Shown one piece after another: positions 1-54,864 of a stretch of DNA of 64,000 nucleotides. This stretch comes from Alphaproteobacteria bacterium (GTDB lineage Bacteria; Pseudomonadota; Alphaproteobacteria; Micavibrionales; Micavibrionaceae), in assembly GCA_050633285.1 (NCBI GenBank), contig JBOEGG010000001.1, forward strand, positions 456,134-520,133. Direction: 5' to 3'. The position numbers and the translations under genes are program-made. A model generated the notes under the pieces. That model searched no databases. It was given only the letters and a program-made list of their open reading frames with translations, and was not told where the DNA came from. Within the stretch, counting starts at the first letter, position 1, and every line of letters begins with the position of its first letter.

Positions 1-1212
1 GCTGTTTTGATGCTCTGTTTGTTTTATATACTCATATTGCCCTGAAACCCAGAGATTTCTATTGAGTTTATAAAGAAGTTCCATTTCCGCGCCCATGCGT
101 TTCAAATCTCTATCCGCATTACCTTTATAATCCCGCAAGAGATATGATGCAGAAGGCTCTATAAATATATTAGGGGCAAACTCATAAACAGCAGATGCGC
201 TAATTTTAGTATCGATACTTGATGAAATGTTATTCAACGTTGATTCCTCAATACTGCGTTCAGCGTTTAAAGTAAGAGCCATAAGAGTTGAGGGCTCCCA
301 TGTAAGGTTAAGAGCATATAGAAAATCATTGATACTATCGAAACGATTATCATCTAAATTACGCCTTACATAAGCAGCGCGTACCGTAGATCGTAACAAG
401 CTAGAGGATGGTGTAAGATTTAAGCCAAGCCCTGTAATAAAGCTTTGTGATGATCTTTCGAATCCATTATCATCAATTTTCTGATCGTATCGTATCTTTT
501 GAAAGCCGGTATATAAAAATGGAGATAAAGGCAACTCGCGTGAGAGTCCGATGGTTGCCGAAGTTCCAAATTGGTTTCTGTTTCTGTCATTGTTATTGAC
601 GAAGGCTGTTTCAGTTCTGTTGTCTTCAAATGTATTGCGTTTAAAAGAGTTGCTTAAGGATGCGTCAATGGTTGCCCCTTTATAATCTAGTCCTGCCCCA
701 ATATTGAGTTCGTTGTTCTTTGTGGGCTCAACTACGCCACGATCATCGGGGCTGGATCGGCGGGAATGGCCTCTGTTATAACTCACTGAAAGTGGAGCCG
801 TTATGTCTCGTGATATATCAACTCTTCCGTTTATACTTGCGGAATAGTCAAAGTAATTTTCATCTTCTATATCGACATACCGCCCGTTCTCAGCAGTCAG
901 GGATGCAGAAAAAAAGTGTCTTGAGAAATCAGAGCGCACCTCTATTGCGGGTCTTACGATGTGTAATGTATCTGCGATTTCATCGGATTGGGTGGAGTAT
1001 AAATTATCCGTATGCTCAATGACATTATCCAGATCGGCATGAAAGATAAATCCGGCAAAGCGTGTGCCGGCGGGGTCATAATCCGGATTACGCCTTGTGA
1101 GAACAGAGAGCTCTTGCTCACGCTCGGCCAAGCTCGCCGTTTGCGCGGATATGGTGCAAACAGGGAGGCTGAGCGCTGTAAACGCGCAAATGGAAAAAAG
1201 ACGATATTTCAT
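1..1212 (-). CDS. Outer-membrane beta-barrel protein (BBP2/porin-like), C-terminus beyond window start
   Basis: Uninterrupted minus-strand frame with ATG at 1212 (alternative ATG 1245); the ORF track omits it because no stop lies in the window. N-terminus MKYRLFSICAFTALSLPVCTISA|QTAS is a Sec signal peptide. Body is alternating amphipathic, Gly/Asn/Tyr/Ser-rich beta-strand sequence typical of OM barrels. Family call is a guess. Confidence 0.55.
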   Translation of the reverse strand, partial: MKYRLFSICAFTALSLPVCTISAQTASLAEREQELSVLTRRNPDYDPAGTRFAGFIFHADLDNVIEHTDNLYSTQSDEIADTLHIVRPAIEVRSDFSRHFFSASLTAENGRYVDIEDENYFDYSASINGRVDISRDITAPLSVSYNRGHSRRSSPDDRGVVEPTKNNELNIGAGLDYKGATIDASLSNSFKRNTFEDNRTETAFVNNNDRNRNQFGTSATIGLSRELPLSPFLYTGFQKIRYDQKIDDNGFERSSQSFITGLGLNLTPSSSLLRSTVRAAYVRRNLDDNRFDSINDFLYALNLTWEPSTLMALTLNAERSIEESTLNNISSSIDTKISASAVYEFAPNIFIEPSASYLLRDYKGNADRDLKRMGAEMELLYKLNRNLWVSGQYEYIKQTEHQNS

Positions 1213-1284
1213 ATCGTTTCGGTGCTTGTGTGAATTGAAAAACATTTAGATAGAATCGGGCGAAAACCCATGTCTATAATTTTA

Positions 1285-2049
1285 TTACTTTTCTTGTGAA
1301 ATGTCCACAGTTCTGTACGTGATACAGGAAAGAATATGCTTCCCGTGCCAACCATTTGGCTTGTATATCCCGAATTTTAGATAAGGAGCTTTGTGGTCGT
1401 TATAGCTATTCGCGCCTTCATATGTGTGTGTAGGGCCATCGGCAATAGTGGTTTTTAAAACACCATTATCCTGATGGGTGAGGTTGGCTATAATCTGTAT
1501 AGGGATCCACTGATTTTGTTCATAGGAATAGTTTTGAAAAATTTCCCGAGATTGAATGCTGCTATTTTCTTCGGCGCAATGATATCCACTCGTCTTCGAT
1601 ATGGCGGTCTTATCCCATCTGTTAAACATGCGTAAATTGCCCTTATATGCCTCTAAGGATACCGGAGGGCATCTCCAATTCTCTGATGTGTCAGGGGGGG
1701 AGTGAATTTGAAAAATACTCATCCATCTATCTGCTTTGTTGACGTTATGGCTGATTTTCATGTCGTAAGAAATTTGTGCCACAAAAGGACGTTTTTGAAA
1801 GGGTTTTATAACAATTTCACATCTTTTTTGATTTGATGCCTTGTGAAGGCAGACGGAAAGCTCCGCTGAATGAGGGGCATCTATGACTTGGAAACTCTGT
1901 TGTGGGCATTCAATTTGTATCTGGCTGGCCGGTATACCAAAAAAACGAGCGAGATTCTGGATATCTGCGGCATTGGTAGAAGCGAGAGAGTTGGGAATAT
2001 ATAAAACGCTATTCAAACAAAGCGCAAAAAGAAATATTCTAAAAAACAT
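1285..2049 (-). CDS. Secreted polysaccharide-lyase-fold protein (alginate lyase 2 / PL7-like)
   Basis: Signal peptide MFFRIFLFALCLNSVLYIPNSLA. QIH motif (WMSIFQIHSPPD) and YxKxGxY motif (YLKFGIYKPNGW) match two of the three PL7 signature blocks. Confidence 0.4.
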   Translation of the reverse strand: MFFRIFLFALCLNSVLYIPNSLASTNAADIQNLARFFGIPASQIQIECPQQSFQVIDAPHSAELSVCLHKASNQKRCEIVIKPFQKRPFVAQISYDMKISHNVNKADRWMSIFQIHSPPDTSENWRCPPVSLEAYKGNLRMFNRWDKTAISKTSGYHCAEENSSIQSREIFQNYSYEQNQWIPIQIIANLTHQDNGVLKTTIADGPTHTYEGANSYNDHKAPYLKFGIYKPNGWHGKHILSCITYRTVDISQEK

Positions 2050-2250
2050 GGATGACCCTTACATGAGAAGGAATGATTGAATATAGTGGCAGGCAATAGA
2101 TAAAACATCAATATATTGTGCTTAAATCTTTCGGGAAATATAACAAGGTATTGATATATAATGAAAATATATATTTTGTTGATTTATTGTAAAGATTCGC
2201 ATTATTATTTTTCATAACTTTTTGTGTGTTTAAATTTAGGGGAAAACGAT

Positions 2251-4395
2251 ATGACTACAACTAATGTTGAAGGTACGCCTACCTTCATATCTGAAAATAT
2301 TATTAATCCATATACAGGCGAGATATTACCGCTATTGGGAACGTATTACATTAACGATACGCATGTGGATGGCGGTGCGGGTACAAGCGATGTACTTTCG
2401 GGCTCACCACTTAATCAATATTATCGTTTGGTCGATGCTGCTGGTGATTTATTGATAGAGAATATTGAATTCATTTTCCCTGGCTCCGGTAATGATATTG
2501 TCAATATTGCCAGCACGACACATGTTCTGGGTGATATGATTATTGCGACGGCTGGCGGTGACGACATCGTTTGGTCGAATTCCGGTAATGACATTATAGA
2601 CGGTAGCCTTGGCAATGATATTCTGCACGGCGGTCCGGGGCATGACACGATTACCGGTGGTGATGATAATGATATTATTACCGGTGGTCAGGGTGATGAT
2701 AATATTAATGGCGGCTCCGGAGTAGATGTTGCCATATATACTGGTGCGTTTGCTAATTATACGATTGCAGATAATGCGGGCACACTTACTGTAACGGATA
2801 ATGTTGGTACAGACGGTGTGGATACGGTCAACGCAGTTGAAACGCTGGTCTTTGTCGATGGTCTGTATCAGGGAGGCGTGTTCGTTCCCAATGTACCAGC
2901 CACGAATGACAAACCTGTCCTTGGAAAGGATAGCACGACTGTTGATGAGGACGGTTCTGTTATCATCAATGTCTTGGCAAATGATAGTGATCCTGATGGG
3001 GATGCGTTAAGTGTCACATCTGTAGGCGGAGTAAATCATGGTGTCGCTGTAATTAATACGGATGGTACAATTACATATACGCCAAATGCAGATTTTTTCG
3101 GTGAGGAGAGTTTTTATTATACTGTCACGGATGCGCGTGGTGAAACTGCAACGCAGCGCGTAAATGTTACAATTGATCCGGTGGCAGATGATCCGGAACC
3201 AAATGTAGGACCTGTCTTGCGTAAAGATAATGTCACTGTTGATGAAAATGATTCTGTTGTGATTGATGTTCTCGCCAATGATAGTGATCAAAACGGCGAT
3301 ACTCTTGAAATTGTACAAGCCTGGGGCGCTAACAACGGTAGCATTGTTGTGAATGCGGATAACACAATTACATATACACCGAACGCGGGCTATAATGGAT
3401 CGGAGAGTTTTTATTATCAGGCATCTGATGGAAATGGCGGTTTATCAACGCAGATTGTGAATGTGAGTATAGCCGCAGTTATTACTGCGCCGGATGCAGA
3501 CCTTGTATCTCTTGATCTCGGAGCGGCATCTTTGTCATCTTATTCTAATCAAGATAATACGCCAACCGGTGCGGGAGCATCAGAAGCACAATTATCTTTG
3601 GCAGGAAACAGTTGGAAGGTGGTTGATCTTCCATCCGGATATACAACAACAGAATATAGTGTTTTACGTTTTGATTTCAGCTCTAACACGCAAGGCGAAA
3701 TCCACGGTATAGGATTGGACACAGATAATGACCACACGACCGGTGATCGGTTGGTACAGGTATACGGAACGCAAAATTGGGGGCAAGATGGTCCTGATTA
3801 CGCTGGTGATGGTTCTGTGCAGGGGTTTGATATCTTGTTGAGTGATTATTACAATGTTGGTGAAACCTATACGCAGCTTGTCTTTGTGAATGATGATGAT
3901 GCGAATAGTAACGCAGATAGCTTGTTTGAAAATGTTTCTTTTTATGAGCTGGGTGATGATGCATCGCAAACCATGGTAAGTGGTGATGGAAGTCAACAAA
4001 TATTCGGTCTGGGTGGGGATGATATCCTTTATGCAGGCGATGATAATGATATCCTTTATGGCGGTGAAGGCGCCGATGTTCTGCACGGTGAAGGCGGTGC
4101 CGATATGTTTGTGTTTGAATTTGATAGTTTCTTTGCCGTTGATGAAATCGCAGATTTTAATACCTCAGAGGACGACAGCATCAATATTTCTTATCTGTTA
4201 GAGGGCTATGATCCTGTTACGGATGCAATTGCAGATTTTGTCCAAATTACGGATAATGGCGTTGATTCGGTATTGTCGGTTGATGTGGATGGTGGTGCAG
4301 ATAATTTTGTTCAGATTGCTACAATAACAGGCGCAACTGGCCTGAGTGATGAGGATGCTCTGGAAGCTGCAGGGAATTTGATTACCGTGATCTAG
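2251..4395 (+). CDS. Type I secretion substrate: RTX-repeat / cadherin-like repeat adhesin
   Basis: ATG 2251 with AGGGGA RBS (the track start at 2224 is GTG). N- and C-terminal GGxGxD nonapeptides (GGDDIVWSNSGNDIIDGSLGNDILHGGPGHDTITGGDDNDIITGGQGDDNINGG; GLGGDDILYAGDDNDILYGGEGADVLHGEGGADMFVF). Two ~95-aa cadherin/VCBS-type modules (VLANDSDPDGDALSVT...ITYTPNADFFGEESFYYTVTD). C-terminal DxxxDxIxxxx/VDGG segment typical of T1SS C-terminal secretion signals. No cleavable signal peptide. Confidence 0.75.
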   Translation: MTTTNVEGTPTFISENIINPYTGEILPLLGTYYINDTHVDGGAGTSDVLSGSPLNQYYRLVDAAGDLLIENIEFIFPGSGNDIVNIASTTHVLGDMIIATAGGDDIVWSNSGNDIIDGSLGNDILHGGPGHDTITGGDDNDIITGGQGDDNINGGSGVDVAIYTGAFANYTIADNAGTLTVTDNVGTDGVDTVNAVETLVFVDGLYQGGVFVPNVPATNDKPVLGKDSTTVDEDGSVIINVLANDSDPDGDALSVTSVGGVNHGVAVINTDGTITYTPNADFFGEESFYYTVTDARGETATQRVNVTIDPVADDPEPNVGPVLRKDNVTVDENDSVVIDVLANDSDQNGDTLEIVQAWGANNGSIVVNADNTITYTPNAGYNGSESFYYQASDGNGGLSTQIVNVSIAAVITAPDADLVSLDLGAASLSSYSNQDNTPTGAGASEAQLSLAGNSWKVVDLPSGYTTTEYSVLRFDFSSNTQGEIHGIGLDTDNDHTTGDRLVQVYGTQNWGQDGPDYAGDGSVQGFDILLSDYYNVGETYTQLVFVNDDDANSNADSLFENVSFYELGDDASQTMVSGDGSQQIFGLGGDDILYAGDDNDILYGGEGADVLHGEGGADMFVFEFDSFFAVDEIADFNTSEDDSINISYLLEGYDPVTDAIADFVQITDNGVDSVLSVDVDGGADNFVQIATITGATGLSDEDALEAAGNLITVI

Positions 4396-4414
4396 GTCAA
4401 AAGAATAAGAGAGA

Positions 4415-4442
4415 GGCCGGGCATTATGTCCGGCTTTTTTTA
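4415..4442 (+). terminator. Rho-independent terminator after the RTX adhesin gene
   Basis: GCCGG-gcattatgt-CCGGC hairpin followed by T9 run. Confidence 0.6.
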
Positions 4443-4514
4443 TTTTAAGGTGACAAAAATTATACGCTAGGCTATATCCCTACACTTTATAAATATAGGA
4501 AAGGGGACGGTATC

Positions 4515-4706
4515 ATGACAATAAAACGTAAAATCACAATAGGTGTTGTCGCGTTTTTTATATATCTGCTCAGTACAATTCCTGTTGGCTTGTTCCTGTA
4601 TTCATTAAAAACAGAATCTGGTTTAAATGTTTTCTCAAAAACAGGATTTCACAGTTATGTCTACTGCTTACAAGAGCAGGTTGAGGCAATCGGAAGTCAA
4701 AAGTAA
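4515..4706 (+). CDS. Small single-TM hypothetical protein (63 aa)
   Basis: AGGGGA RBS 8 nt upstream of the ATG; one hydrophobic helix (IGVVAFFIYLLSTIPVGLFLY); sits in the 413-bp gap between the two adhesin genes. Confidence 0.3.
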   Translation: MTIKRKITIGVVAFFIYLLSTIPVGLFLYSLKTESGLNVFSKTGFHSYVYCLQEQVEAIGSQK

Positions 4707-4807
4707 ACTGTGCTTTTAAAAAGTTTAGTATTTCCTATAGATTTTTTCCTTTTCATACACTAGTACTTCTTGCCGCGTGAATACGTATAAACGGGAAGGT
4801 TTGAAAC

Positions 4808-6412
4808 ATGATAAAGGTAAGTCAAAATATTAGCACGGTATTTGGTTTATTCGCTGCTGTCGCAGTAACAACAACAGCGAATGCAAATGAGAGGCCGGTT
4901 CTCGGCAAAGACAGCGCACGTGTTGATGAAGATCAATCCGTCGAAATTAACGTCCTTTCCAATGATAATGATCCTGATGGCGATGCCTTAAGAATTACAT
5001 CTGTAGAAGGGCTAACCAATGGGGTTGCCACCATTAACGCGCTGGAAAATCGTATCACATATACGCCCAATCCCGATTATAATGGTACGGAGAGCTTTTT
5101 ATATCGTGTGACCGATGATAACGGTGGCAATGCAGTACAACGGGTTAACGTTACAATTGACGCAGTTGAAGATGAGGTTGAGCCAAATTTAAGGCCGACA
5201 CTGGGAAAAGATAATGTCTCTTTGATAGAAGGGGAGACACGTCAGATTAATGTTCTATCCAATGATTCTGATCCGAATGGTGATGCACTTAGCGTAACCC
5301 AAGCATGGTCCGCGACGCATGGTACGACTACGGTGAATGCGGATAATACAATTACATATACGCCTGATGCGGGCTATTTTGGTGCTGACTCTTTTTATTA
5401 TCAGGCGAGCGATAATAGAGGCGGTCTGGCAACACAGGTTGTGAACGTCTCCATTGAGGAAGTCGCGAACCGACGCCCGAAGTTGGGTAAAGATAGTGCA
5501 CTATTAAGTGAAAACACAACGGTAAGGTTGAATGTCCTGTCCAATGATTCTGACCCTGATGGTGATGCGCTTAGCGTAACCCAAGCATGGTCTGCGACGC
5601 ATGGTACGACTACGGTAAATGCGGATAATACGATTACATATACGCCAGATGAAGATTATTTTGGTAATGACGCTTTTTATTATCAGGTAAGTGATGATAA
5701 TGGTGGTTTGGCAACGCAGGTCGTGAGTGTATCAATTGCAGAAGTTGATGATGGGCCGGATCCAAACAATCTTCCTCCCGTTGCTGTCAGGGATGATTTT
5801 ACGGTTGATGAGGATACAGTGACGGAACTGGATGTTTTGTTAAATGATAGTGATCCGAATAATGATTATCTAACTGTTGTCTCATTCACTGCGCCATCAC
5901 ATGGCGACCTTGAAATGGAGATTAAAGAAAATAATACGATCTGGTATCGGCCAAACGCAGAATATAATGGTCGGGATAGCTTTACTTACACGGTCAGTGA
6001 CGGGCAGGGAGCAGAAACAACGCAGACTGTTACTCTACATGTGCAACCGGATGTATCGGAAAACGCAAAGCATATATACTTCGCTATGCAGGCTTGTAAT
6101 ACAGGTGGTTGTTCGGTGAAATCAAATGAAGTGACAAAATATATGGATGGCCCGAAAATAACGCTTGGCTGGGATCAGCCAACGCGCCTTGAGAACGGGC
6201 AATGTATAGATGAAAATACGCAAGTGACCAGTTATGTATTGAATATGGGTGTAGAGCAAGGTGTGCATGGTGCAACTGATTTATGGTCTTTAGAATCTGT
6301 GCATGTGGATTGTGAGCCGACTGGTCGTCGTGATGAGCAGTGCGATGTTGATATCATGAGATGCACAGAAGAAGATTATTATGTCGAAGGATTCATTACG
6401 GATTTTGAATAG
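4808..6412 (+). CDS. Secreted cadherin-like repeat protein (4 tandem modules + Cys-rich C-terminal domain)
   Basis: GGAAGG RBS. Signal peptide MIKVSQNISTVFGLFAAVAVTTTANA. Four ~95-aa modules each with NVLSNDSDP(D/N)GDALSVT and ITYTP(D)xxYxGxDSFYYQxSD motifs. C-terminal 120 aa has 8 Cys. Confidence 0.75.
   Translation: MIKVSQNISTVFGLFAAVAVTTTANANERPVLGKDSARVDEDQSVEINVLSNDNDPDGDALRITSVEGLTNGVATINALENRITYTPNPDYNGTESFLYRVTDDNGGNAVQRVNVTIDAVEDEVEPNLRPTLGKDNVSLIEGETRQINVLSNDSDPNGDALSVTQAWSATHGTTTVNADNTITYTPDAGYFGADSFYYQASDNRGGLATQVVNVSIEEVANRRPKLGKDSALLSENTTVRLNVLSNDSDPDGDALSVTQAWSATHGTTTVNADNTITYTPDEDYFGNDAFYYQVSDDNGGLATQVVSVSIAEVDDGPDPNNLPPVAVRDDFTVDEDTVTELDVLLNDSDPNNDYLTVVSFTAPSHGDLEMEIKENNTIWYRPNAEYNGRDSFTYTVSDGQGAETTQTVTLHVQPDVSENAKHIYFAMQACNTGGCSVKSNEVTKYMDGPKITLGWDQPTRLENGQCIDENTQVTSYVLNMGVEQGVHGATDLWSLESVHVDCEPTGRRDEQCDVDIMRCTEEDYYVEGFITDFE
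5281..5740 (+). repeat. Intragenic direct repeat (~180 bp unit at 5281-5460 and 5561-5740, ~90% identical)
   Basis: DNA compared directly. Both copies encode SVTQAWSATHGTTTVNADNTITYTPD..FYYQ.SD..GGLATQVV.VSI.EV. Confidence 0.8.
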
Positions 6413-6493
6413 TATTCTTGCCTATTTTATATAGTGTTGAGTTAGGATTCTATGTTTGATTCCTGACTCTTGTGCATTTTTTTTAAAATGATT

Positions 6494-6512
6494 TTAGAAT
6501 TAGAATTCTCTA
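6494..6512. promoter_or_regulatory. Imperfect palindrome TTAGAATTAGAATTCTCTA in giant-adhesin upstream region (candidate operator)
   Basis: Core AGAATTCT is a perfect palindrome with extended imperfect arms, about 250 bp upstream of the 6757 start. Confidence 0.2.
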
Positions 6513-6756
6513 AATCAAAAGGGCTACACTCTGTTTCCCGATACACTTGCATTTCCGCATCATAAAAAGGTTACATTTTCCTTAATATTTTGTTGTTTTT
6601 TCGAAGAGAAAGGGCGTATATTCCATCCTTATTACTAGAATGCGACACAGAATATATCTGGTGCGCTGCACAAGTTAGGGACAACTTGGCATCGTGCGGG
6701 GGCATTACTCGTAACAGATAATTAAGAATTTGAGCGTAAAGAGCAAGGATAAGACG

Positions 6757-9700
6757 ATGGGTAAATATGTAGCAACACGCAATAAAGTACAATGTACACG
6801 AGCGGCAAACATAACAAAAGGTCTTTCTAAGGCATTAATGTCGACAACAGCCTTTATGGCAGCGGCTCTTTTAATGCCGATGAACGCGGATGCACAAGAT
6901 GCAACGCCGACACATTCTTGGGATTATGATACGGTTCTGGACGGTAATGTGAGTAAGGATCTAACAATTCCGAACGTAACCGATATTACAGTTACAAACG
7001 GTAATGGTTATGTTGAAGGTAATGCAGATATTTACAATGGTCATACAGTGAACGTTACTGGTGATAGCGGCAGCACATTTGCATACCGTGATAATCGCGC
7101 AGATATTCAATCTACATTGGATGGTGATCTGAATTCTAATATGCAGATTGTTATTATCGATAAGGATGGTTTGTTTTTCACTGAGAATTCCAGTGTTGAT
7201 GTGCAAAGCTTAATCGCCACTTCAGGAAAGATTAGTGTCTCTGATATTATGGATAACGGAGATTTAACGATCAAAAATATCGCGAATGGCGGTGAAATTG
7301 TTCTGGATGGAACGATTACGGTTGCTGAAGCTGGTCTTGCGGCATTTGTATCCCCATTTGTAACCAACAGTGGCGTTATTAATGCAAAGCTTGGTAATGT
7401 TGTCATGGCGTCTGGTAAGAAGGTGACGCTTGACATGTATGGTGACGGCCTTGTTGAGGTTACTGTTAAGGGTGAACTGAATGACGCTCTTTTAAGTAAT
7501 GAAGGTTCAATTAATGCAGAAGGCGGTACAGTACAGATTACTGCGAAGGCCGCAAAAGATACAATTGATAACGTTATCAATAACACGGGTATTATCACGG
7601 CATCTTCTGCAACAGTTTCAGGCGGTAAAATTATTCTGTCCGGTGGTAAAAACGGAACAGTCAATAACAGCGGCTCAATTGAAACATCTGCGGGTGGTTC
7701 GGTTGATATATCAGGTGAGCGTTTCGTACAAGAGGGTGCACCTCCTGTACCTTCGTCAAAGCCGGCATTAAGCCCATCTATTAATACGGGTGGTGGTAAT
7801 GTGAATATCGCGACAAGCGGAAATGTTGAAATCTACGCAGGCGAAATTAATGCCGAAGGCGGAAATATTGACATCGATAATGGCGGTGTTTTCACTTCTG
7901 TCGCAAATACTTTAAAAACAAATGGTACAGGCACAATTGACCTGAATCAGAATCAAGATGATACACCTGTCCCAACTGCACAAATTCTTGCATTGATTGA
8001 GCCGGCTGCTCAGGGAATCCAAGGCGCAATTGATGCGATTGATAACACAGGTACAGGCGAAAATACAATTAATGTAGGCGCGGGCACATTCAATGAATCT
8101 GTTAGTGTGGATCATGCAAATATCGTTCTAAATGGCGCAAATGCAGGTACAGCAGGCTATTCTAATGCGCGTGGTGATGAAACAATCATTAATCCGAATT
8201 CTCCGGGATTCCATGTAACTGCGGATAATGTGACAGTTGATGGGTTTACCGTTACTGGTGGTGATCCTGGCATTCATGTAGATCACGCACAAAATGCATC
8301 AATTTTGAACAATGTAGTAACCGGAAGTACAACACACGGTATCCATTTCAATCGTGCTCATAATAGTACTGCACAGGGTAACAGCATAGATTCTGTTACT
8401 GAATCAGGTATCTTTGTAGAAAGAAGTAATAATACTGATATTGGTGGTCTTGCATCGGGTGAAGGTAATGAAATTGATGGTGCATGGACAGGTATTCGCA
8501 CCAGTGATAGTAACGACATATCCATTATCGGAAACGATATAAGTAATATCACAGGAACAGACCGTTTCGCTGACGGTATCCATGTGTTTGGTGGTGCTAG
8601 TGTAGATGTCTCTAATAACCGTATTGATACGACGAACGATGAAGGTGTTTATGCAAGCTTTACCCGTGGAAACCTAACAATTACGGACAACGTTATAACA
8701 AATGTTGGTCTTGCAACACCTGACATTGGTAATGGGGTTGAGCTGATCTACACGAAAGGTAATGCGAATGTGTCAGGTAATAAGATTACGGGCACAGAAC
8801 ATGCAGGTGTTTTAATTAAAGAGACGAATACTTCTGGTGGCTCTTTTGTTGTTGATGATAATAGAATTAAGAACACTGGTGCGTCCGGTATTGATATCGA
8901 TAAGAAAGCTGCGAGCGTTTCAGGTAATACAATATCCAATGCTGGCAAACACGGTATTGATGTAGATGCATCATCTAATGTTGTCATCGCGGGTAATGAT
9001 CTGTCTGACATTACCGAAATCGGTATTTTTCTAGACGATAGTGATAATGCTGTTATCGGTGGTACGACTGCTGCTGATGCAAATAAAATTAATCGTGCAT
9101 GGACAGGTATCCGTGTAAATGACGCTAACGAAGCAGATATCATAGGCAACAATATTAAAAACATCACAGGAACAGACCGTTTCGCTGATGGTATCCATGT
9201 GAATGGCGGTGCTAATGTTGAGATTTCTCATAACAAGATTAAGAATACGAATGACGAAGGTGTATATGTAAGTTTTGCACGCGGTCACATTGTTATTGAT
9301 GACAACACAATCACGAATGCTGGTCTTGCGACTGCCGATATCGGTAATGGGGTTGAGCTAATTGCGATGAAAGGCTCAGCAGAAATTACAAACAATGATA
9401 TTAATGGCGCTGAGTTTGCCGGTATCTTGCAAAAAGGTTGGAGAGGAAGTGGCTCTCTTCTTGTTGCAGGGAATGATGTAGAGAACGCACAATTTGGTGT
9501 TCGTATTGATGAAGGTATCGATGGTCGTCGTGTTGATATTCTGGACAATGATTTAAAAGCGGATGATGTTGGCGTTCTTGTAACTGGTGGCATCACAAAT
9601 GGTGCACATTTGCAGATAGGCCAACTGTTCGACGGCAACACTATCAAATCTAAGGGAGATGGTGTCCGCATTGAAGGTGGCGTAGACGATTCTGACGTAT

Positions 9701-12700
9701 TTATCGTGGCAAACAAAATTACCGGCCGTGCTGACGGTATCCATGTGGATGGCGATGTTACAGATTCCATATTCGGCATTGGTCTGAATAGTATCAAGGG
9801 TATCAATGATGACGGTATCGACTTTGAGGGTAATGTAGAAGATAGCCTGGTCGCGATTGTTTTGAATAAAAGCATAGAAGGCGGTCATGATGGTATTGAG
9901 TTTGAAAACACAATCCGTGGTGAGGATACAGTTGTTGCGATTGCCTTGAATAAAGAAATCAAAGGTGGTTCTCGCGGTATTCGTTTCGGTGATAGTGCCG
10001 ATGACGCAGCCGTAGAAGATGGCGCGACAGTCGCCATAGCATATAACGGTAAGATCAAAGGAAAGAATAACGACGCAATTCAATTTGATGCGGAAGTTAA
10101 CGACTCAACAGTTACAATAACCAATAATAAGAACATTATCGGTGGCGATGATGGTATTGAGTTTGATGAGAAGGTAACAAATTCAACAATCACAATCGCG
10201 TCAAATGATATTGAGGCAGATGATGATGGTATCGATTTCGACTCCGGTGTATCTGGTGGCTCTGTTGAAATTACCGATAATACAATTGACGCTGGGGACG
10301 CAGGTATCGAGTTTGATGCAGGTAGCCCGGCAATCTTTGGCGCGTCTGTTTTGATCTCCGAAAATGATATTTACTCTGAAGATGGTCATGGTATTGCTGT
10401 AAATGGTGACATCACAGATTCATTGGTACGTATCATTGACAATATTTCAATTGATGGCGCAGAAGACGGTATTCATGTCGCGGGTGAAATCGAAGATGAA
10501 TCAAATGTGATTATTGCACGTAATGATGAAATCTATGCAGAGTATGGTCATGCAATTGCCCTGAATGATGGTGTTGATGATTCAACTGTACGCATTATTG
10601 ATAACGGCACGATTGACGGTGGCGATAATGGTATTAACATTGAGGGAGGCCTTGATGAAGCGACCGTTGTTATTGCCCGTAATGCAGATATTTTTGCCGA
10701 AGATGGTCATGGTATCGCAGTACATAGTGACGTGTCTGATACAGACCTGCGTATCATTGATAACACATCGATTGATGGTGGCACAGACGGTGTTCATGTC
10801 CATGGCGCACTGAGAAGTGGATCAACAATCACGATTGCACGTAATAGTAATGTTACAGGTCTTGATGATGATGGTATTGAGGTCGTAAATACAGGATTTG
10901 GTAAAAATGCAGATGTTCGCATCGCACGTAACCATGTCCATCACACAGGTGATGATGGTATCATAGTGCGTAATGTCAAGGGCGTAGATGTTGTTCATAA
11001 CACTGTTCATGACACAGACGGTAATGGTATTAAGGTTTCTCGTAGTGCATACGCAGACATCATTAATAATGATGTAACGCGCGCTGGTGATGACGGTATC
11101 GATGTAGAATATAGCTATAACGTTGATATTCTCCTCAACACAGTGAAGCGTTCCGGCGATGACGGTATAGATGTTGAAAACAGCACAAGCGCCGATATCC
11201 GCGGTAATGATGTTTCTAAATCACGTGGTGATGGTATTGAGGTAACAAATAGTGCCTATACAGATATCATTAACAACCGCGTTCGTTTCTCTGGTGATGA
11301 CGGTATCGATGTAGATCGTAGTTTCGCAGTAGACATCAAACGTAATTCTGTTTTCGTAACAGGTGGTAACGGTATTGAAGTTACCAATAGCCGTTATGCA
11401 GATATTATCCGTAACAACGTTGCCTTTGCGGGTGATGACGGCATCGATGTTGGTTATTCATCTTTCGCAGATGTAAACGGTAATAATGTTTATCGTGCAC
11501 GTGGCGATGGTATTGAGATCACAGGCGGCTACGGCGTAGATGTTAAAGGTAACGACATCTATAGTTCCGGCGATGATGGTATTGATATTGAGCACAGTAA
11601 CGGTGCAGAGATTGCCTATAACTATGTGACAGGATCACGCGTTAACGGTATCGAAGTATCAGATAGTAACGGCGTTGATATTACAGATAACGGTATATTC
11701 TTCTCAGGTAATAATGGGATTGATGTTCGTTATGGTGGCGATATAAATGTTCGTCGTAACTTTATCCGCTTCTCACGCAATGATGGTATTCATGCAGAAG
11801 GCATTTATGGATATGGCGCATCGTTTACACGTTCTAACGGCGGTAATGGCGGAATTGATATTGTAAACAACAATATTCGTTTCTCTGGTGATGATGGCAT
11901 TGATGTTGAAGGCAGCAATGATGTAAATATTCGTCGTAATCTTATCCGCGATTCACGTGATGACGGTATTGACGTATCATACAGCTATGATGTCGATATT
12001 ATAAATAATCGTATTATCCGTTCTGGTGATAATGGCATCGAAGTGCGCGGTGGTGGTGACATCAATATCCGTCGTAACTTTATCCGTCGTTCCGGCAGTG
12101 ATGGTATCCATGCCGAAAATGTATATGGCGGTGGAATACCCACGATCTCTATGAGTAGAGACGGGACCGAAGGTGGCTTATATATCGTGAATAACGATGT
12201 TCGTTTCTCTGGTGATGATGGTATAGAAGTGCAAAATAGCAGTTCTGCAAAAATCAAACGCAACACAATTAGCGATTCTGAAGATGATGGTATCTCATCA
12301 CGTTATAATGGCAGTGTTGTGATTGCGCGCAACGAAGTGGATGAATCAGGCGATGATGGTATCTATGTTGTTGGCGGTGGATTTAAAGGGCCGCAAATCT
12401 TTGCATTGTCTGATGAGCTGCAAGAGCAACCAAAAGTTCGTTTTTACGGTTCTTCTGCGGTCATCCGTGGGAACACAGTAACAAACTCTGGTGGTGACGG
12501 TGTTCACACAAACAATATTGATAATCTGAGAATTGTTAACAATAATGTGAGTGATAGCTTTGAGCATGGTGTTTACGTATCCGGTGCATATAACGGATAT
12601 GTGAAATTTCAGGGCAATACATTAACTGATAACGGACATTTGAGCGATTCTGCCGCGGCACGTTTTGAAAGTGGCGATATCGATATGAGCAATCTGGATA

Positions 12701-13467
12701 ACCCAAATACATTTATCAATACATCAGGCTTGCCTGCTGTTGCGATGCAGTTTGATGATATTTCAGGCGGTGTATTCCCATCAGACGCAATCCTTTTGAA
12801 TGACGGGCCGTCTTTCATGGGTGGTAATGGTCTTCGTATCGTTGGTGAAACTCTAGGCTCAACCATCTTTGATGGTTACACACCGGAAGATAGCTTCTAT
12901 GTTCGCTTCGAAGATGGCTCTATACTTGACCCATTAACAGGCGCGCCAATTGTGATTGATGCAATGGATGTATCATTTGATGGTCTTGTGCCAAACACGT
13001 TTGCAGGTGGTGTATTACCGGCTCCTGTCTTTGATTTCATCGAAGAGCGTCTTTTTGATGCAGATGATGAAACGCAAGATGGACGCGGTCAGATATTTAT
13101 CGGAACACGTGCTCAAAACACGCAAGGACCGGCAAATTTCCAAGATTTCCTTCCTGAGAGTGAAGCGGCAAGCAGAACAAGTAATGGTGCGAGCCTTGTG
13201 ATTACAGGCCTGCCATCTGTTAATGGCTTTGGCGCAGATGCTCTGAATAATATTGCACCAAATGCAGGTGGAGAAGGAAATGAGAACCCTGAGGATCTTG
13301 CTAATATTGATCCGGCAGCCGGTGGTGAAGAGCAGTCTCCATCACAAGTAACATGTATGGGTGACGCTGTAGGCGCGCTTGAAAGCGGCTCTGTATCATA
13401 TAGTTTTGGTGGTTCATTTGAGGATAGCATCGCAGGAACCTCTTCCTGTGCAAGCGCAGATTTATAA
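6757..13467 (+). CDS. Giant secreted adhesin-like protein: TPS/FHA-like N-terminal domain + extensive right-handed parallel beta-helix (PbH1/NosD-type) repeats
   Basis: ATG 6757 with AAGGA RBS (the track uses TTG 6730). 46-aa extended signal peptide (…TTAFMAAALLMPMNADA|QD). Residues ~60-330 resemble the hemagglutination-activity/TPS domain (GDLNSNMQIVIIDKDGLFFTENSSVDVQSLIATSG; GGEIVLDGTITVAEAGLAAFV…GNVVMASGKKVTLDMYGDGLVEV). About 60 copies of a 22-23-aa unit N.V..SGDDGIDV..S..VDI. follow, and the protein ends in a Gly/Ser/acid-rich tail. Confidence 0.7.
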   Translation: MGKYVATRNKVQCTRAANITKGLSKALMSTTAFMAAALLMPMNADAQDATPTHSWDYDTVLDGNVSKDLTIPNVTDITVTNGNGYVEGNADIYNGHTVNVTGDSGSTFAYRDNRADIQSTLDGDLNSNMQIVIIDKDGLFFTENSSVDVQSLIATSGKISVSDIMDNGDLTIKNIANGGEIVLDGTITVAEAGLAAFVSPFVTNSGVINAKLGNVVMASGKKVTLDMYGDGLVEVTVKGELNDALLSNEGSINAEGGTVQITAKAAKDTIDNVINNTGIITASSATVSGGKIILSGGKNGTVNNSGSIETSAGGSVDISGERFVQEGAPPVPSSKPALSPSINTGGGNVNIATSGNVEIYAGEINAEGGNIDIDNGGVFTSVANTLKTNGTGTIDLNQNQDDTPVPTAQILALIEPAAQGIQGAIDAIDNTGTGENTINVGAGTFNESVSVDHANIVLNGANAGTAGYSNARGDETIINPNSPGFHVTADNVTVDGFTVTGGDPGIHVDHAQNASILNNVVTGSTTHGIHFNRAHNSTAQGNSIDSVTESGIFVERSNNTDIGGLASGEGNEIDGAWTGIRTSDSNDISIIGNDISNITGTDRFADGIHVFGGASVDVSNNRIDTTNDEGVYASFTRGNLTITDNVITNVGLATPDIGNGVELIYTKGNANVSGNKITGTEHAGVLIKETNTSGGSFVVDDNRIKNTGASGIDIDKKAASVSGNTISNAGKHGIDVDASSNVVIAGNDLSDITEIGIFLDDSDNAVIGGTTAADANKINRAWTGIRVNDANEADIIGNNIKNITGTDRFADGIHVNGGANVEISHNKIKNTNDEGVYVSFARGHIVIDDNTITNAGLATADIGNGVELIAMKGSAEITNNDINGAEFAGILQKGWRGSGSLLVAGNDVENAQFGVRIDEGIDGRRVDILDNDLKADDVGVLVTGGITNGAHLQIGQLFDGNTIKSKGDGVRIEGGVDDSDVFIVANKITGRADGIHVDGDVTDSIFGIGLNSIKGINDDGIDFEGNVEDSLVAIVLNKSIEGGHDGIEFENTIRGEDTVVAIALNKEIKGGSRGIRFGDSADDAAVEDGATVAIAYNGKIKGKNNDAIQFDAEVNDSTVTITNNKNIIGGDDGIEFDEKVTNSTITIASNDIEADDDGIDFDSGVSGGSVEITDNTIDAGDAGIEFDAGSPAIFGASVLISENDIYSEDGHGIAVNGDITDSLVRIIDNISIDGAEDGIHVAGEIEDESNVIIARNDEIYAEYGHAIALNDGVDDSTVRIIDNGTIDGGDNGINIEGGLDEATVVIARNADIFAEDGHGIAVHSDVSDTDLRIIDNTSIDGGTDGVHVHGALRSGSTITIARNSNVTGLDDDGIEVVNTGFGKNADVRIARNHVHHTGDDGIIVRNVKGVDVVHNTVHDTDGNGIKVSRSAYADIINNDVTRAGDDGIDVEYSYNVDILLNTVKRSGDDGIDVENSTSADIRGNDVSKSRGDGIEVTNSAYTDIINNRVRFSGDDGIDVDRSFAVDIKRNSVFVTGGNGIEVTNSRYADIIRNNVAFAGDDGIDVGYSSFADVNGNNVYRARGDGIEITGGYGVDVKGNDIYSSGDDGIDIEHSNGAEIAYNYVTGSRVNGIEVSDSNGVDITDNGIFFSGNNGIDVRYGGDINVRRNFIRFSRNDGIHAEGIYGYGASFTRSNGGNGGIDIVNNNIRFSGDDGIDVEGSNDVNIRRNLIRDSRDDGIDVSYSYDVDIINNRIIRSGDNGIEVRGGGDINIRRNFIRRSGSDGIHAENVYGGGIPTISMSRDGTEGGLYIVNNDVRFSGDDGIEVQNSSSAKIKRNTISDSEDDGISSRYNGSVVIARNEVDESGDDGIYVVGGGFKGPQIFALSDELQEQPKVRFYGSSAVIRGNTVTNSGGDGVHTNNIDNLRIVNNNVSDSFEHGVYVSGAYNGYVKFQGNTLTDNGHLSDSAAARFESGDIDMSNLDNPNTFINTSGLPAVAMQFDDISGGVFPSDAILLNDGPSFMGGNGLRIVGETLGSTIFDGYTPEDSFYVRFEDGSILDPLTGAPIVIDAMDVSFDGLVPNTFAGGVLPAPVFDFIEERLFDADDETQDGRGQIFIGTRAQNTQGPANFQDFLPESEAASRTSNGASLVITGLPSVNGFGADALNNIAPNAGGEGNENPEDLANIDPAAGGEEQSPSQVTCMGDAVGALESGSVSYSFGGSFEDSIAGTSSCASADL
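8440..9430 (+). repeat. Intragenic segmental duplication (~330 bp units at ~8461-8790 and ~9061-9390)
   Basis: DNA is near-identical; both encode …AWTGIR..D.N…I.GN.I.NITGTDRFADGIHV.GGA.V…NDEGVY.SF.RG…GLAT.DIGNGVELI…. Confidence 0.75.
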
Positions 13468-13696
13468 AATTAAGCCCTCGTTAAACTTTTTCAGTTATTG
13501 ATATGAATGAAGCTCTGATCATTAGGTTGGAGCTTTATTCTGTTATTACGTATAGTTTTCGTATATAAAAAACTTGCGTCATAATAGTATAATGCGTCTA
13601 TGATAAGAAAATTTTTAAATAACAGGGGGTTGCACTCACGTTATTTTCTGTCAGAATAAGGCGTTGGTGTTGGTAATAGAGTTTAAGGTATAGAAT

Positions 13697-14317
13697 ATGT
13701 ATCACGACGATAATTGGAACGAAGTCCACGGGGATGAGCTAGCAGGGTTTTTGGATAAAATTAATCCAATAGACGGTAAATACCGTACATCACCCAACAG
13801 CACACAAGTTGCGTGGCGTACATTGCCATTTTATGAGAGTGTGGCATTGATCCGGGTTAAAGATCCGAATTGGGTTAATAAAAGAATGACAATCTACTAT
13901 TTAACGGATCAGGGAAATCTCTTCCGTTTGAATGGAACATCTCCTCCGATTCATGAGGTGAATAGTAAAGCACCAATCAAAATTAACGAAGATAACGTTA
14001 TCGAATATCTGAAGTTTTTCTGTTTCTTCGTTCGTGGAGATGAAGGGCCGTTTTATATTTCTGAAGATATGTCTGATCCGAACTTGCCAACAGATATGGA
14101 TGCGACAACGCGTTCTGTGATTGAAGGTACAATTCGTCCATCAAGCTTTGAAGGTATGAATGAGCAGGGGCATTTCTTATGTGATGCAGTTGTTTATTAT
14201 TCAAATGCACTATTTATTGCGAATTTTGCAGTACAGCAAAGTGGTATGATTGAGATGCTGAATGATGAACCAATCGCAGGCGATTTAGGATCAAAGGTAG
14301 AAACACCAATTGCATAG
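13697..14317 (+). CDS. Hypothetical cytoplasmic protein (206 aa), orphan downstream of giant adhesin
   Basis: No signal peptide or TM; no motif I recognise; followed by a bidirectional terminator. Confidence 0.5.
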   Translation: MYHDDNWNEVHGDELAGFLDKINPIDGKYRTSPNSTQVAWRTLPFYESVALIRVKDPNWVNKRMTIYYLTDQGNLFRLNGTSPPIHEVNSKAPIKINEDNVIEYLKFFCFFVRGDEGPFYISEDMSDPNLPTDMDATTRSVIEGTIRPSSFEGMNEQGHFLCDAVVYYSNALFIANFAVQQSGMIEMLNDEPIAGDLGSKVETPIA

Positions 14318-14344
14318 AGTTTAGGTGTGTTCTGATAAAAGAAA

Positions 14345-14369
14345 GAGGCCGTCTGAACGGCCTTTTTTG
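14345..14369. terminator. Bidirectional rho-independent terminator between convergent genes
   Basis: GGCCG-tctgaa-CGGCC hairpin, T6 on plus strand, A-run on the other side. Confidence 0.6.
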
Positions 14370-14404
14370 TTGTCTGTATTTTGCCGCCGGTATAGGGAGT
14401 GCGA

Positions 14405-14743
14405 TTATAATGCGTCTTTACCCGTTTCGCCCGTACGAATGCGCACGGCTTTTTCAAGTTCATAGACAAAAATTTTGCCATCGCCGATGCGTCCTGTTTC
14501 TGCGGCACTTTGGATTACCTGCACAACTTTTTCTTCCAATTCGTCCGCAATCGCGACCTCAATTTTGACTTTCGGTAGAAAGCTTACGGAAAAATCAGCG
14601 GTATGATAATTTTGCGTTTGTCCTTTTTGACGGCCAAAGCCTTTTACTTCTGTTGCCGTTAAACCTTCGATCCCTAAATCCATTAAGGCTTCGCGGACAT
14701 CATCAAGTTTAAAAGGCTTTATCACGGCCATGATCATTTTCAT
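14405..14743 (-). CDS. glnB: Nitrogen regulatory protein P-II
   Basis: MAVIKPFKLDDVREAL…GLTATEVKGFGRQKGQTQNYH…GDGKIFV…; canonical P-II sequence including the T-loop Tyr. Confidence 0.9.
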   Translation of the reverse strand: MKMIMAVIKPFKLDDVREALMDLGIEGLTATEVKGFGRQKGQTQNYHTADFSVSFLPKVKIEVAIADELEEKVVQVIQSAAETGRIGDGKIFVYELEKAVRIRTGETGKDAL

Positions 14744-14848
14744 AAGGTACTATCCCTTCACCCTAAATTTGGTTTCACTTTATTATGTGGCTGACGTATA
14801 AAGTTATACGAATTGCATTTATTTTCAAGGAAACATTTTTAGTAAGGA

Positions 14849-16048: not shown

Positions 16049-16076
16049 TTTTTACGATAAAATCTGAGTCTTTAAT

Positions 16077-16105
16077 TTGACATCAGGTGGATAACTAGTT
16101 ATAAA
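16077..16105 (+). promoter_or_regulatory. Consensus sigma70 promoter (TTGACA-N17-TATAAA) upstream of rpmH
   Basis: Read directly from the sequence. The spacer contains GGTGGATAA, an 8/9 match to a DnaA box. Confidence 0.5.
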
Positions 16106-16330: not shown

Positions 16331-16335
16331 GACCA

Positions 16336-54850: not shown

Positions 54851-54864
54851 AGTAATATCTCCTG

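What the first reader, a model, noticed from the sequence alone, without database searches (positions are those of the whole stretch)
1..14400. Adhesin island: T1SS RTX/cadherin adhesin, cadherin-repeat protein and 2,237-aa TPS-like beta-helix giant
About 14 kb are devoted to surface proteins. The set comprises an OM beta-barrel, a secreted PL7-like lyase-fold protein, a T1SS-signal RTX protein with two cadherin-like modules, a Sec-signal protein with four such modules, and a giant protein joining an FHA/TPS-like N-domain to roughly 60 PbH1 beta-helix coils. No T1SS ABC/MFP genes and no TpsB/Omp85 partner are present in the window, so the secretion routes are unresolved. The upstream OM barrel does not look like a POTRA-containing TpsB. 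The PbH1 (CASH-like) repeats suggest carbohydrate binding or cleavage, consistent with the adjacent lyase-like gene.
Basis: partly seen in the sequence, partly recalled or inferred. Interest (0 to 1): 0.6.

Follow-up and report, generated by a model that had tools for sequence, protein, structure and literature searches.

The report
Split two-partner adhesin locus with polysaccharide genes
The "adhesin island" is three ordinary units side by side in a Micavibrio-like bacterium: the start of a polysaccharide-export operon, two calcium-binding repeat proteins, and a giant fibre protein whose missing secretion partner lies about 10 kb outside the window.

Summary
They are not one adhesin island.

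1. The outer-membrane barrel (BBP2_2) and the lyase are the first two genes of a minus-strand Wzx/Wzy polysaccharide operon. An identical contig continues it upstream with a 188-aa export protein, Wzz/GNVR, Wzy and Wzx. The barrel is most likely the polysaccharide export pore, not a TpsB.

2. Two paralogous tandem-95 (cadherin-like) proteins follow. One is a type I secretion (T1SS) RTX substrate. The other has a Sec signal.

3. The 2,236-aa giant is a genuine but divergent TpsA. Pfam and NCBIfam miss its N-domain. The domain nevertheless hits the EtpA secretion domain (7e-22), and its model matches only TPS domains.

Relatives are nearly all Micavibrio-type genomes. In 15 of 15 relatives with the same downstream neighbours, tpsB sits divergently about 0.3-0.7 kb upstream of tpsA. 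Here tpsB exists about 16.6 kb upstream, outside the window. A 12-gene block (the polysaccharide cluster plus the two repeat proteins) has been inserted between the partners.

The T1SS genes remain unlocated. The components are of known kinds, and interest is modest.

The parts
1..1212 (-). First 404 codons of a 423-aa outer-membrane beta-barrel (BBP2_2). The gene ends 59 nt beyond the window start. It is the second gene of the polysaccharide operon and the probable partner pore of the adjacent short export (OPX) protein.
   Evidence: Pfam PF10082 3.5e-72. A weak EpsL hit of 40 bits against a cut-off of 275. The full gene and its neighbours are seen in the identical contig L085.
1285..2049 (-). 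254-aa polysaccharide lyase-family protein with a signal peptide. It is the first gene of the minus-strand operon.
   Evidence: PF14099 56.6 bits against a cut-off of 29.9; PL7 model 19.5 bits, below its cut-off. The same order lyase-barrel-Poly_export-Wzz occurs in L080 at 39%/33% identity. No PDB sequence hit.
2050..2250 (.). Divergent intergenic region between the polysaccharide operon and the RTX gene.
   Evidence: Gene coordinates. Promoter-like matches here are no more frequent than chance.
2251..4395 (+). 714-aa T1SS-type RTX protein. It has an N-terminal RTX block, two tandem-95 (cadherin-like) modules, an unassigned domain of about 150 aa, a second RTX block and a T1SS C-terminal domain.
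   Evidence: PF00353 7e-20, Big_9 3.7e-50, Cadherin_5 3.3e-41. tand_rpt_95 3.5e-41 and TIGR03661 31 bits against 17.6. The middle domain has no PDB hit.
4808..6412 (+). 534-aa Sec-signal protein with four tandem-95 modules and a Cys-rich C-terminal part of about 120 aa with no family. It is a paralogue of the RTX protein's modules.
   Evidence: Big_9 6.5e-97 in 4 stretches. tand_rpt_95 7.7e-74 in 4 stretches. DNA repeat families D1 and D5 link the two genes at 61-85% identity.
6757..13467 (+). tpsA: 2,236-aa two-partner-secretion exoprotein (alternative TTG start at 6730).
   Evidence: The identical 2,236-aa protein P0213 is in the representative library.
6757..6894 (+). Long N-terminal signal peptide, about 46 residues, ending ...PMNADA|QD.
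   Evidence: Read from the sequence; inference. No Pfam ESPR hit.
6907..7734 (+). Divergent TPS (secretion) domain. The canonical NPNGI motif reads DKDGL.
   Evidence: phmmer to PDB: EtpA 7.2e-22, HxuA 2.1e-8, HMW1 5.4e-4. AlphaFold pLDDT 85-96. The Foldseek top 9 hits are all TPS domains. Motif table.
8197..12654 (+). About 60 PbH1/NosD-type beta-helix coils in three blocks: two duplicated units of about 205 aa, coils of 26-28 aa, and coils of 23 aa with the motif GDDGIDV.
   Evidence: PF13229 1e-96, NosD 3.8e-59. TIGR03804. Coil listing. DNA copies are only 60-72% alike.
12652..13464 (+). Family-specific C-terminal domain of about 270 aa with two invariant Cys in the last 35 residues.
   Evidence: Alignment A3. 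It is found in 142 representative clusters out of 1.84 billion proteins. In the long hits (about 1,000-3,400 aa) it sits at or within a few residues of the C-terminus; many other hits are short, probably fragmentary, proteins. The AlphaFold model was unusable, pLDDT 47.
13505..13540 (+). Terminator-like hairpin after tpsA.
   Evidence: 16-pair stem. Pattern match only.
13697..14317 (+). 206-aa cytoplasmic-looking protein of unknown function. It is a core neighbour of the locus, not an adhesin.
   Evidence: 78-91% identical in 11 listed relatives and present directly downstream of tpsA in 15. No Pfam, NCBIfam or PDB hit.

Best explanation
The region is the junction of three units on the chromosome of a Micavibrio-type alphaproteobacterium.

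(1) Polysaccharide operon. It reads on the minus strand as lyase, BBP2_2 barrel, 188-aa Poly_export (short OPX) protein, 711-aa Wzz/GNVR co-polymerase, Wzy, Wzx, followed by glycosyltransferases. [quoted passage not shown] The periplasmic lyase trims or clears polymer.

(2) Two paralogous tandem-95 (cadherin-like) calcium-binding proteins. One leaves the cell through an unlinked type I system. The other crosses the inner membrane by Sec.

(3) The lineage's conserved TpsA. Sec exports it. Its divergent TPS domain is recognised by the POTRA domains of TpsB, and it is threaded through the TpsB barrel. Outside the cell it folds into a beta-helix fibre of about 60 coils carrying a conserved, disulfide-bearing C-terminal domain at its far end.

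The cognate tpsB is intact in a sibling record and still divergently oriented. It lies about 16.6 kb upstream because a 12-gene block (units 1 and 2) was inserted between tpsB and tpsA.

Shown: the gene content, the homologies, the synteny and the position of tpsB. Inferred: actual secretion, the pore role of the barrel, and function. The most likely function of the fibre and the repeat proteins is glycan-directed attachment, either to prey or other surfaces or to the cell's own polysaccharide.
For: TPS domain:
- Homologues of residues 56-472 nearly all carry PF05860.
- phmmer to EtpA 7e-22.
- The AlphaFold model plus Foldseek returns only TPS domains at E<=2e-4.

Family context:
- All 80 genome loci are uncultured MAGs. 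About 30 are labelled Micavibrio, about 10 Pseudobdellovibrionaceae or Bdellovibrionales, and most of the rest unclassified Alphaproteobacteria or Rhodospirillales.
- 62 of 80 have a divergent TpsB directly upstream.
- All 15 loci with the 206-aa gene directly downstream have it.
- The window shares downstream synteny with L008: p206 91%, ubiH-like 70%, then rnpA, yidD and yidC.

tpsB:
- L085 is 100% identical to window 1..11056.
- L095 overlaps L085 at 100% over 3,104 nt and carries POTRA_2+ShlB, followed by sulfotransferase and GT4 genes. These are orthologous to L008's at 64-67% identity and in the same order.
- An intact 575-aa copy is P0344.

Precedent for unlinked partners: the MAG holding the nearest TpsA relative (L005) keeps TpsB at the canonical site without TpsA.

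Polysaccharide operon:
- Gene content, and the same module order in L080.
- Short OPX proteins pair with adjacent beta-barrel pores (PMC9601211, PMC9603273).

T1SS substrates. Unlinked RTX substrates are the norm in M. aeruginosavorus (PMC3189940).
Against: - No secretion or localisation data exist.
- The TPS domain lacks the canonical NPNGI motif and fails the Pfam and NCBIfam models. This is true of the whole clade, including members with an adjacent TpsB.
- The tpsB copy in L095 contains 'nn' and a split gene call. Its integrity rests on a sibling record that differs by one residue, whose assembly I could not identify.
- The barrel's strand number and its homology to EpsX/WzpX were not tested.
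- T1SS genes were not found in the 64-kb window or in the 14 kb upstream.
- Function (adhesin, glycan-binding scaffold or enzyme) is not discriminated.
Confidence: 0.75

Rival explanations
1. The giant beta-helix protein, and perhaps the RTX and cadherin-like proteins, are functionally part of the polysaccharide system. They would act as a secreted polysaccharide-modifying enzyme (epimerase- or lyase-like CASH fold), or as a scaffold or lectin set that binds and organises the cell's own polymer, rather than as an adhesin for foreign surfaces.
For: - Polysaccharide genes flank this TpsA family in several independent contexts. Wzy_C is found in 18 loci, directly beside TpsB in about 14 of them, and sulfotransferase/GT4 genes occur in 5-8.
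- The orphan TpsA plus RTX pair in L005 sits inside a GT, UDPG_MGDP_dh and epimerase cluster.
- L006 lies between Wzz/GNVR, an acyltransferase and GT1 on one side and a pyruvyl transferase on the other.
- L001 has ManC, Wzy_C and UDPG_MGDP_dh.
- L080 has lyase-barrel-OPX-Wzz next to TpsA.
- NosD/PbH1 similarity.
- T1SS-secreted cadherin-like lectins bind the producer's own exopolysaccharide in Rhizobium (PMC5061743, PMC9298526).
Against: - Part of the adjacency may be inherited synteny, since housekeeping genes are equally conserved neighbours.
- The conserved parts of the giant are its two ends, while the beta-helix varies greatly in length and sequence. That fits a spacer stalk better than a catalytic core.
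- No catalytic motif was identified.
Confidence: 0.3
2. One reading: a single co-functional adhesin island in which the barrel, lyase, RTX protein, cadherin protein and giant were acquired and act together.
For: - The genes are contiguous and all products are extracytoplasmic.
- The block between tpsB and tpsA is lineage-specific and slightly AT-richer, 40.6-41.7% against 42.3-43.3% GC.
- An RTX homologue also neighbours the TpsA in L005.
Against: - The giant is not part of the variable block. It is at the conserved site with conserved flanks.
- The barrel and lyase belong to an operon that extends well beyond the window.
- There is no integrase, tRNA, IS or flanking repeat.
Confidence: 0.1
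3. After separation from tpsB, the giant is a non-secreted relic on its way to becoming a pseudogene.
For: The partners are 16.6 kb apart. The L095 copy of tpsB has an apparent frame break.
Against: - The 6.7-kb ORF is intact. Two other assemblies match the parts of it they cover: 100% to window 11056 and 99.98% to window 11667.
- The TPS and C-terminal domains keep the family's invariant residues.
- An intact 575-aa TpsB exists, and the break coincides with 'nn' and a spurious duplication.
- Unlinked pairs persist in a sister genome.
Confidence: 0.05

Closest known systems
Two-partner secretion (type Vb) adhesins: EtpA/EtpB of ETEC, HMW1/HMW1B of Haemophilus influenzae, FHA/FhaC of Bordetella
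   Same: It has an N-terminal signal peptide and a TPS beta-helix secretion domain (best PDB matches EtpA, HMW1, HxuA and FHA). It has a very long beta-helical passenger. Its Omp85-type partner carries POTRA_2 and ShlB domains.
   Different: - The TPS domain fails PF05860 and TIGR01901, and NPNGI is replaced by D-[K/R/Q]-[D/N]-G across the whole clade.
- The passenger is built of PbH1/NosD-type coils rather than FHA-type repeats.
- It has a family-specific C-terminal domain containing Cys.
- In this genome the partners are 16.6 kb apart rather than adjacent.
Composite short-OPX/beta-barrel polysaccharide translocons (Myxococcus xanthus EpsY/EpsX and WzaX/WzpX; Vibrio cholerae VpsN/VpsM), PMC9601211 and PMC9603273
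   Same: A Poly_export protein under 200 aa is encoded beside an outer-membrane barrel and a long Wzz/GNVR co-polymerase in a Wzx/Wzy cluster.
   Different: The barrel is a BBP2_2 family member with a weak EpsL hit. Homology to EpsX/WzpX and an 18-strand fold were not tested. A lyase gene heads the operon.
Rhizobium leguminosarum Rap proteins (cadherin-like CHDL lectins secreted by the PrsDE type I system), PMC5061743 and PMC9298526
   Same: These are calcium-dependent cadherin-like modules on a T1SS substrate encoded in an organism that makes an exopolysaccharide. Here the gene sits next to the polysaccharide operon.
   Different: The modules here are tandem-95/Big_9 type, and homology to the Ra/CHDL domain was not tested. 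The window protein also has RTX blocks and an extra middle domain. Its paralogue uses Sec, not T1SS. No binding data exist.
Micavibrio aeruginosavorus ARL-13 surface proteins (PMC3189940)
   Same: ARL-13 has six RTX 'hemolysin-related' T1SS substrates, only one of which lies next to T1SS genes. [quoted passage not shown] Expression index in attack/attachment phase is 0.1/6.1 and 0/7.7.
   Different: Orthology of GMV_2020/2021 to the window genes is inferred from size, adjacency and annotation only. The paper does not discuss a two-partner system. ARL-13 has 55% GC by my recollection, against about 43% here.

Membership tests
TpsA exoprotein (type Vb secretion) | N-terminal TPS secretion domain with the beta-helix fold | tested here: met
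   phmmer to EtpA 7.2e-22, HxuA 2.1e-8, HMW1 5.4e-4. Model pLDDT 85-96 for residues 60-335. The Foldseek top 9 hits are all TPS domains.
TpsA exoprotein (type Vb secretion) | Match to the curated family models PF05860 (Haemagg_act/TPS) or TIGR01901 | tested here: not met
   No hit even at E<=10 for residues 1-521. Most homologues at 35-55% identity do carry PF05860.
TpsA exoprotein (type Vb secretion) | Conserved NPNGI-type motif in the TPS domain | tested here: not met
   It reads IIDKDGLFF. The whole Micavibrio-type clade has D-x-[N/D]-G, including members with an adjacent TpsB.
TpsA exoprotein (type Vb secretion) | Cognate TpsB (POTRA plus ShlB/Omp85 barrel) in the genome | tested here: met
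   L095 overlaps the window's upstream contig at 100% and encodes POTRA_2+ShlB about 10-11.6 kb before the window start. An intact 575-aa form is P0344. It is 67% identical to L008 TpsB with conserved flanks.
TpsA exoprotein (type Vb secretion) | TpsB-dependent secretion | not testable with these tools
   Needs genetics or biochemistry.
T1SS RTX substrate | GGxGxD nonapeptide repeats and a C-terminal secretion domain, with no N-terminal signal peptide | tested here: met
   PF00353 7.1e-20 in 4 stretches. TIGR03661 31 bits against a cut-off of 17.6. The N-terminus MTTTNVEGTPTF... has no hydrophobic signal.
T1SS RTX substrate | ABC exporter, MFP and TolC-type partners | tested here: inconclusive
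   None in the 64-kb window or in the 14 kb upstream.
Composite OPX/beta-barrel polysaccharide translocon | A short Poly_export protein lacking an outer-membrane-spanning domain, encoded beside an outer-membrane barrel and a PCP | tested here: met
   188-aa Poly_export(+SLBB weak), 423-aa BBP2_2 barrel and 711-aa Wzz+GNVR are adjacent. The same trio occurs in L080.
Composite OPX/beta-barrel polysaccharide translocon | 18-stranded barrel homologous to EpsX/WzpX/AlgE | not tested
There is only the Pfam BBP2_2 hit and a weak EpsL hit.
Polysaccharide lyase (PF14099; PL7-like jelly roll) | Family model above threshold | tested here: met
   56.6 bits against 29.9. The PL7 model Alginate_lyase2 scores 19.5 bits, below its 29.7 cut-off. 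Catalytic residues and substrate were not tested.
Mobile genomic island | Integrase, tRNA or IS boundary, flanking repeats, deviant composition | tested here: not met
   The only tRNA is at 37633. No integrase was found among scanned ORFs. GC is 40.6-41.7% against 42.3-43.3%. Insertion relative to relatives is supported by synteny only.

The most novel reading that the evidence does not exclude
The TpsB/TpsA pair is a chromosomally fixed surface organelle found across Micavibrio-type genomes (62 of the 80 related loci carry it, mostly uncultured MAGs). It has a non-canonical TPS motif, a PbH1 beta-helix stalk and a conserved disulfide-bearing tip. It would serve either as the prey-attachment fibre of these epibiotic predators or as an anchor that couples the cell's own polysaccharide to the surface. 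Its repeated embedding in polysaccharide clusters, and the insertion of a whole cluster between the partners here, would then reflect a functional coupling between type Vb secretion and exopolysaccharide that has not been described.
Probability: 0.2. Interest if true: 0.6.

Novelty: new member of a known kind. Interest (0 to 1): 0.35.

Why it matters
How Micavibrio-type epibiotic predators hold on to prey is unknown. Published genome work stressed RTX proteins and pili, and I found no paper linking Micavibrio to two-partner secretion.

A conserved TpsB/TpsA pair with a giant beta-helix and a conserved tip domain is a concrete, testable candidate for that attachment step. In ARL-13 an adjacent pair of matching size is expressed in the attachment phase.

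There are two practical lessons for annotation. Curated TPS models miss this clade. And an "orphan" TpsA can have its partner many kilobases away.

Tried and rejected
Searches that gave nothing:
- Direct Pfam and NCBIfam detection of the TPS domain: no hit. Homology was established by other routes.
- Genome and metagenome scans with the barrel protein.
- A first alignment that was too diverse to use for the scan.
- Exact look-ups of the lyase and of the full giant: not on record.
- AlphaFold of the C-terminal domain: pLDDT 47, unusable, so no fold search was run on it.
- PDB sequence searches for the lyase, the 206-aa protein and the RTX middle domain.
- Rfam scan of 1..17000, to look for riboswitches in the long leaders: no hit.
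- Tandem-repeat finder on the giant: no near-identical DNA repeats.
- The promoter scan was uninformative: 48 found against 47.6 expected.
- The listing of cluster members returned no accessions with which to pick the right TpsB. Three look-ups hit other genomes before P0122 hit the right organism.

Ideas rejected:
- That the degenerate NPNGI motif marks TpsB-less orphans. The motif is clade-wide.
- That the BBP2_2 barrel substitutes for TpsB. It belongs to the OPX/PCP module.
- That this is a mobile island. No mobility genes were found.
Full report
**What is in the region**

ORF listing and translation give six genes in 1..14400.
- A minus-strand gene runs off the window start (1..1212).
- A 254-aa gene lies on the minus strand (1285..2049).
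- Four plus-strand genes follow: 2251..4395, 4808..6412, 6757..13467 (alternative TTG at 6730) and 13697..14317.

Pfam and NCBIfam assign them as follows.
- The first is a BBP2_2 outer-membrane barrel (3.5e-72).
- The second is a Polysacc_lyase (PF14099, 4.4e-15), with a sub-threshold PL7 hit.
- The third has RTX repeats, two tandem-95/Big_9/Cadherin_5 modules, and the T1SS C-terminal domain TIGR03661 above its cut-off.
- The fourth has four tandem-95 modules behind a Sec-type signal.
- The giant has Beta_helix (1e-96, 13 stretches) and NosD.
- The 206-aa protein matches nothing.

I counted about 58-62 coils of 22-30 residues between residues about 490 and 1975 of the giant. They fall into three blocks. 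At the DNA level the copies are only 60-85% alike.

**Is the N-domain a TPS domain?**

There is no PF05860 or TIGR01901 hit even at E<=10. Other evidence nevertheless shows it is one.
- Homologues of residues 56-472 almost all carry PF05860.
- The domain alone hits the PDB secretion domains of EtpA (7.2e-22), HxuA (2.1e-8) and HMW1 (5.4e-4).
- An AlphaFold model has pLDDT 85-96 over residues 60-335.
- Its nine best Foldseek matches in the PDB are all TPS domains: EtpA, HMW1, HxuA and FHA.

The canonical NPNGI motif reads DKDGL. This divergence is shared by the whole clade, including members with an adjacent TpsB. It is a family trait, not a sign of decay.

**Who carries this family, and how is it normally organised?**

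A scan of one genome per species returned 80 loci. All are uncultured MAGs. About 30 are labelled Micavibrio and about 10 Pseudobdellovibrionaceae or Bdellovibrionales. Most of the rest are unclassified Alphaproteobacteria or Rhodospirillales, with a few labelled otherwise. NCBI files Micavibrio under Bdellovibrionota, while the genome paper treats it as an alphaproteobacterium (PMC3189940).

In 62 of the 80 loci a POTRA_2+ShlB TpsB is transcribed divergently, roughly 0.3-0.7 kb upstream of tpsA.

The window's downstream genes are syntenic with the Micavibrio MAG chromosome L008. They are the 206-aa protein (91% identical), a ubiH-like monooxygenase (70%), rnpA, yidD and yidC. All 15 loci that have the 206-aa gene directly after tpsA also have tpsB directly before it. 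The window is the one exception. tblastn finds no tpsB remnant in it.

**Where is tpsB?**

An exact look-up of the 534-aa protein found contig L085, which is 100% identical to window 1..11056. It ends inside the giant's repeats, exactly where DNA repeat family D3 begins. L085 adds 5.2 kb upstream. That stretch holds the rest of the barrel, a 188-aa Poly_export protein, a 711-aa Wzz/GNVR protein, Wzy_C and a Wzx-type flippase, all on the minus strand.

A search with L008's TpsB, followed by look-ups, reached L095. L095 overlaps L085 at 100% over 3,104 nt.

In window orientation the order is:

GT4, GT4, sulfotransferase, LamG_3, tpsB (about -9.8 to -11.6 kb), GT2, WecG, GT2, GT4, Wzx, Wzy, Wzz, OPX, barrel, lyase | RTX, cadherin-like, tpsA, 206-aa gene, ubiH-like.

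The genes beyond tpsB (sulfotransferase and two GT4) are orthologous to L008's at 64-67% identity and in the same order. TpsB is 67% identical.

In L008 the two flanks enclose about 350 bp. Here they enclose about 16.6 kb and 12 genes. The parsimonious reading is an insertion between the divergent partners.

The L095 copy of tpsB has 'nn' and a spurious duplication that splits the gene call. A sibling record, P0344, is an intact 575 aa and differs by one residue.

Unlinked partners have a precedent. In the MAG that holds the closest TpsA relative (L005), TpsB stays at the canonical site next to the 206-aa gene while TpsA sits on another contig.

**The barrel and the lyase**

They head a Wzx/Wzy operon. 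The same order (lyase, barrel, Poly_export, Wzz) recurs in L080.

Short OPX proteins lacking an outer-membrane domain work with an adjacent beta-barrel pore and a long PCP (PMC9601211, PMC9603273). The gene trio here fits that pattern, so the barrel is best read as the polysaccharide pore. Strand number and homology to EpsX were not tested.

From general knowledge of systems such as alginate (AlgL), a periplasmic lyase in a polysaccharide operon typically clears or trims polymer. The substrate here is unknown.

**The two repeat proteins**

Their modules are paralogous, at 61-85% DNA identity. They are part of the inserted block and are absent from the nearest relatives at this site.

An RTX protein homologous to the N- and C-terminal parts of the window's RTX protein sits beside the orphan TpsA of L005, inside a glycosyltransferase cluster.

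No T1SS genes occur in the window or in the 14 kb upstream. In M. aeruginosavorus only one of six RTX substrates is linked to the T1SS genes.

T1SS-secreted cadherin-like lectins that bind the producer's own polysaccharide are known in Rhizobium. That is an analogy, not a tested membership.

**Function of the giant**

Across the family the TPS domain and a C-terminal domain of about 270 aa with two invariant cysteines are conserved. The stalk varies from about 1,000 to 3,400 residues in total protein length. Conserved ends with a variable stalk suit a fibre with a functional tip.

The family is repeatedly flanked by polysaccharide genes in independent contexts. A role tied to the cell's own polymer therefore stays a serious rival.

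In ARL-13, an adjacent 'putative hemagglutinin' and 'surface antigen' pair of matching sizes is expressed in the attachment phase and nearly silent in the attack phase. Most genes in that data set follow the same trend, and orthology was not checked by sequence.

**Verdict**

All components are of known kinds: type Vb, type I, and a Wzx/Wzy system with an OPX/barrel pore.

What is new:
- The TpsA clade is one that curated models miss.
- It is widespread among Micavibrio-type genomes and sits at a fixed chromosomal site in the subset that shares the window's downstream neighbours.
- This genome has a 16-kb polysaccharide/cadherin block wedged between tpsB and tpsA.

I found no paper linking Micavibrio with two-partner secretion. 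Interest is modest.

Noticed in passing
window 13697-14317: A 206-aa protein with no Pfam, NCBIfam or PDB match is 78-91% identical across Micavibrio-type genomes whose ubiH-like neighbour is only 57-70% identical. It stays at this site even where tpsA has moved away (L092). It is unusually conserved for an unknown protein.
   Followed up: partly
L092 6001-7731 and L005 9863-13852 (same MAG, CAYGSJ01): A sister genome has the reverse arrangement to the window. TpsB stays at the canonical site next to the 206-aa gene, while TpsA plus an RTX gene lie on another contig inside a glycosyltransferase cluster.
   Followed up: partly
window 53537-58634 (-): Two very large proteins with prepilin-type N-terminal methylation motifs (437 and 830 aa) are followed by a 430-aa protein with no family. 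They are oversized pilin or pseudopilin-like proteins, possibly relevant to surface contact.
   Followed up: no
window 34689-35615: A eukaryotic-type (alpha) carbonic anhydrase (PF00194, 8e-45) lies between glmS and a chemoreceptor gene.
   Followed up: no
window 11056/11057; L085 end: The 467-kb public contig of the same organism ends exactly where the 23-residue-coil DNA repeat family D3 begins. The giant gene breaks short-read assemblies and is mostly represented by fragments in the databases.
   Followed up: yes
L095 7560-7619 and 7976-7977: Runs of N sit in and before tpsB in the draft assembly. The 2-N site sits in a spurious duplication (ggcgcagatnnggcgcag) that splits the gene call into 94 + 493 aa. 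A sibling record is intact.
   Followed up: yes
L001 23-823, L004 16109-16885, and L011, L012, L014: SapC-family genes (known from the Campylobacter S-layer secretion locus) recur near members of this TpsA family.
   Followed up: no
window 27870-29787: A FemAB/GNAT-like acyltransferase gene overlaps a DUF3108 gene between dapD and glmU. This is an unusual pairing in a housekeeping stretch.
   Followed up: no
L095 9569-10303: A 244-aa Laminin_G_3 (concanavalin-like lectin) protein is encoded immediately beside tpsB in the window organism, between tpsB and the sulfotransferase. L008 has no counterpart there.
   Followed up: no
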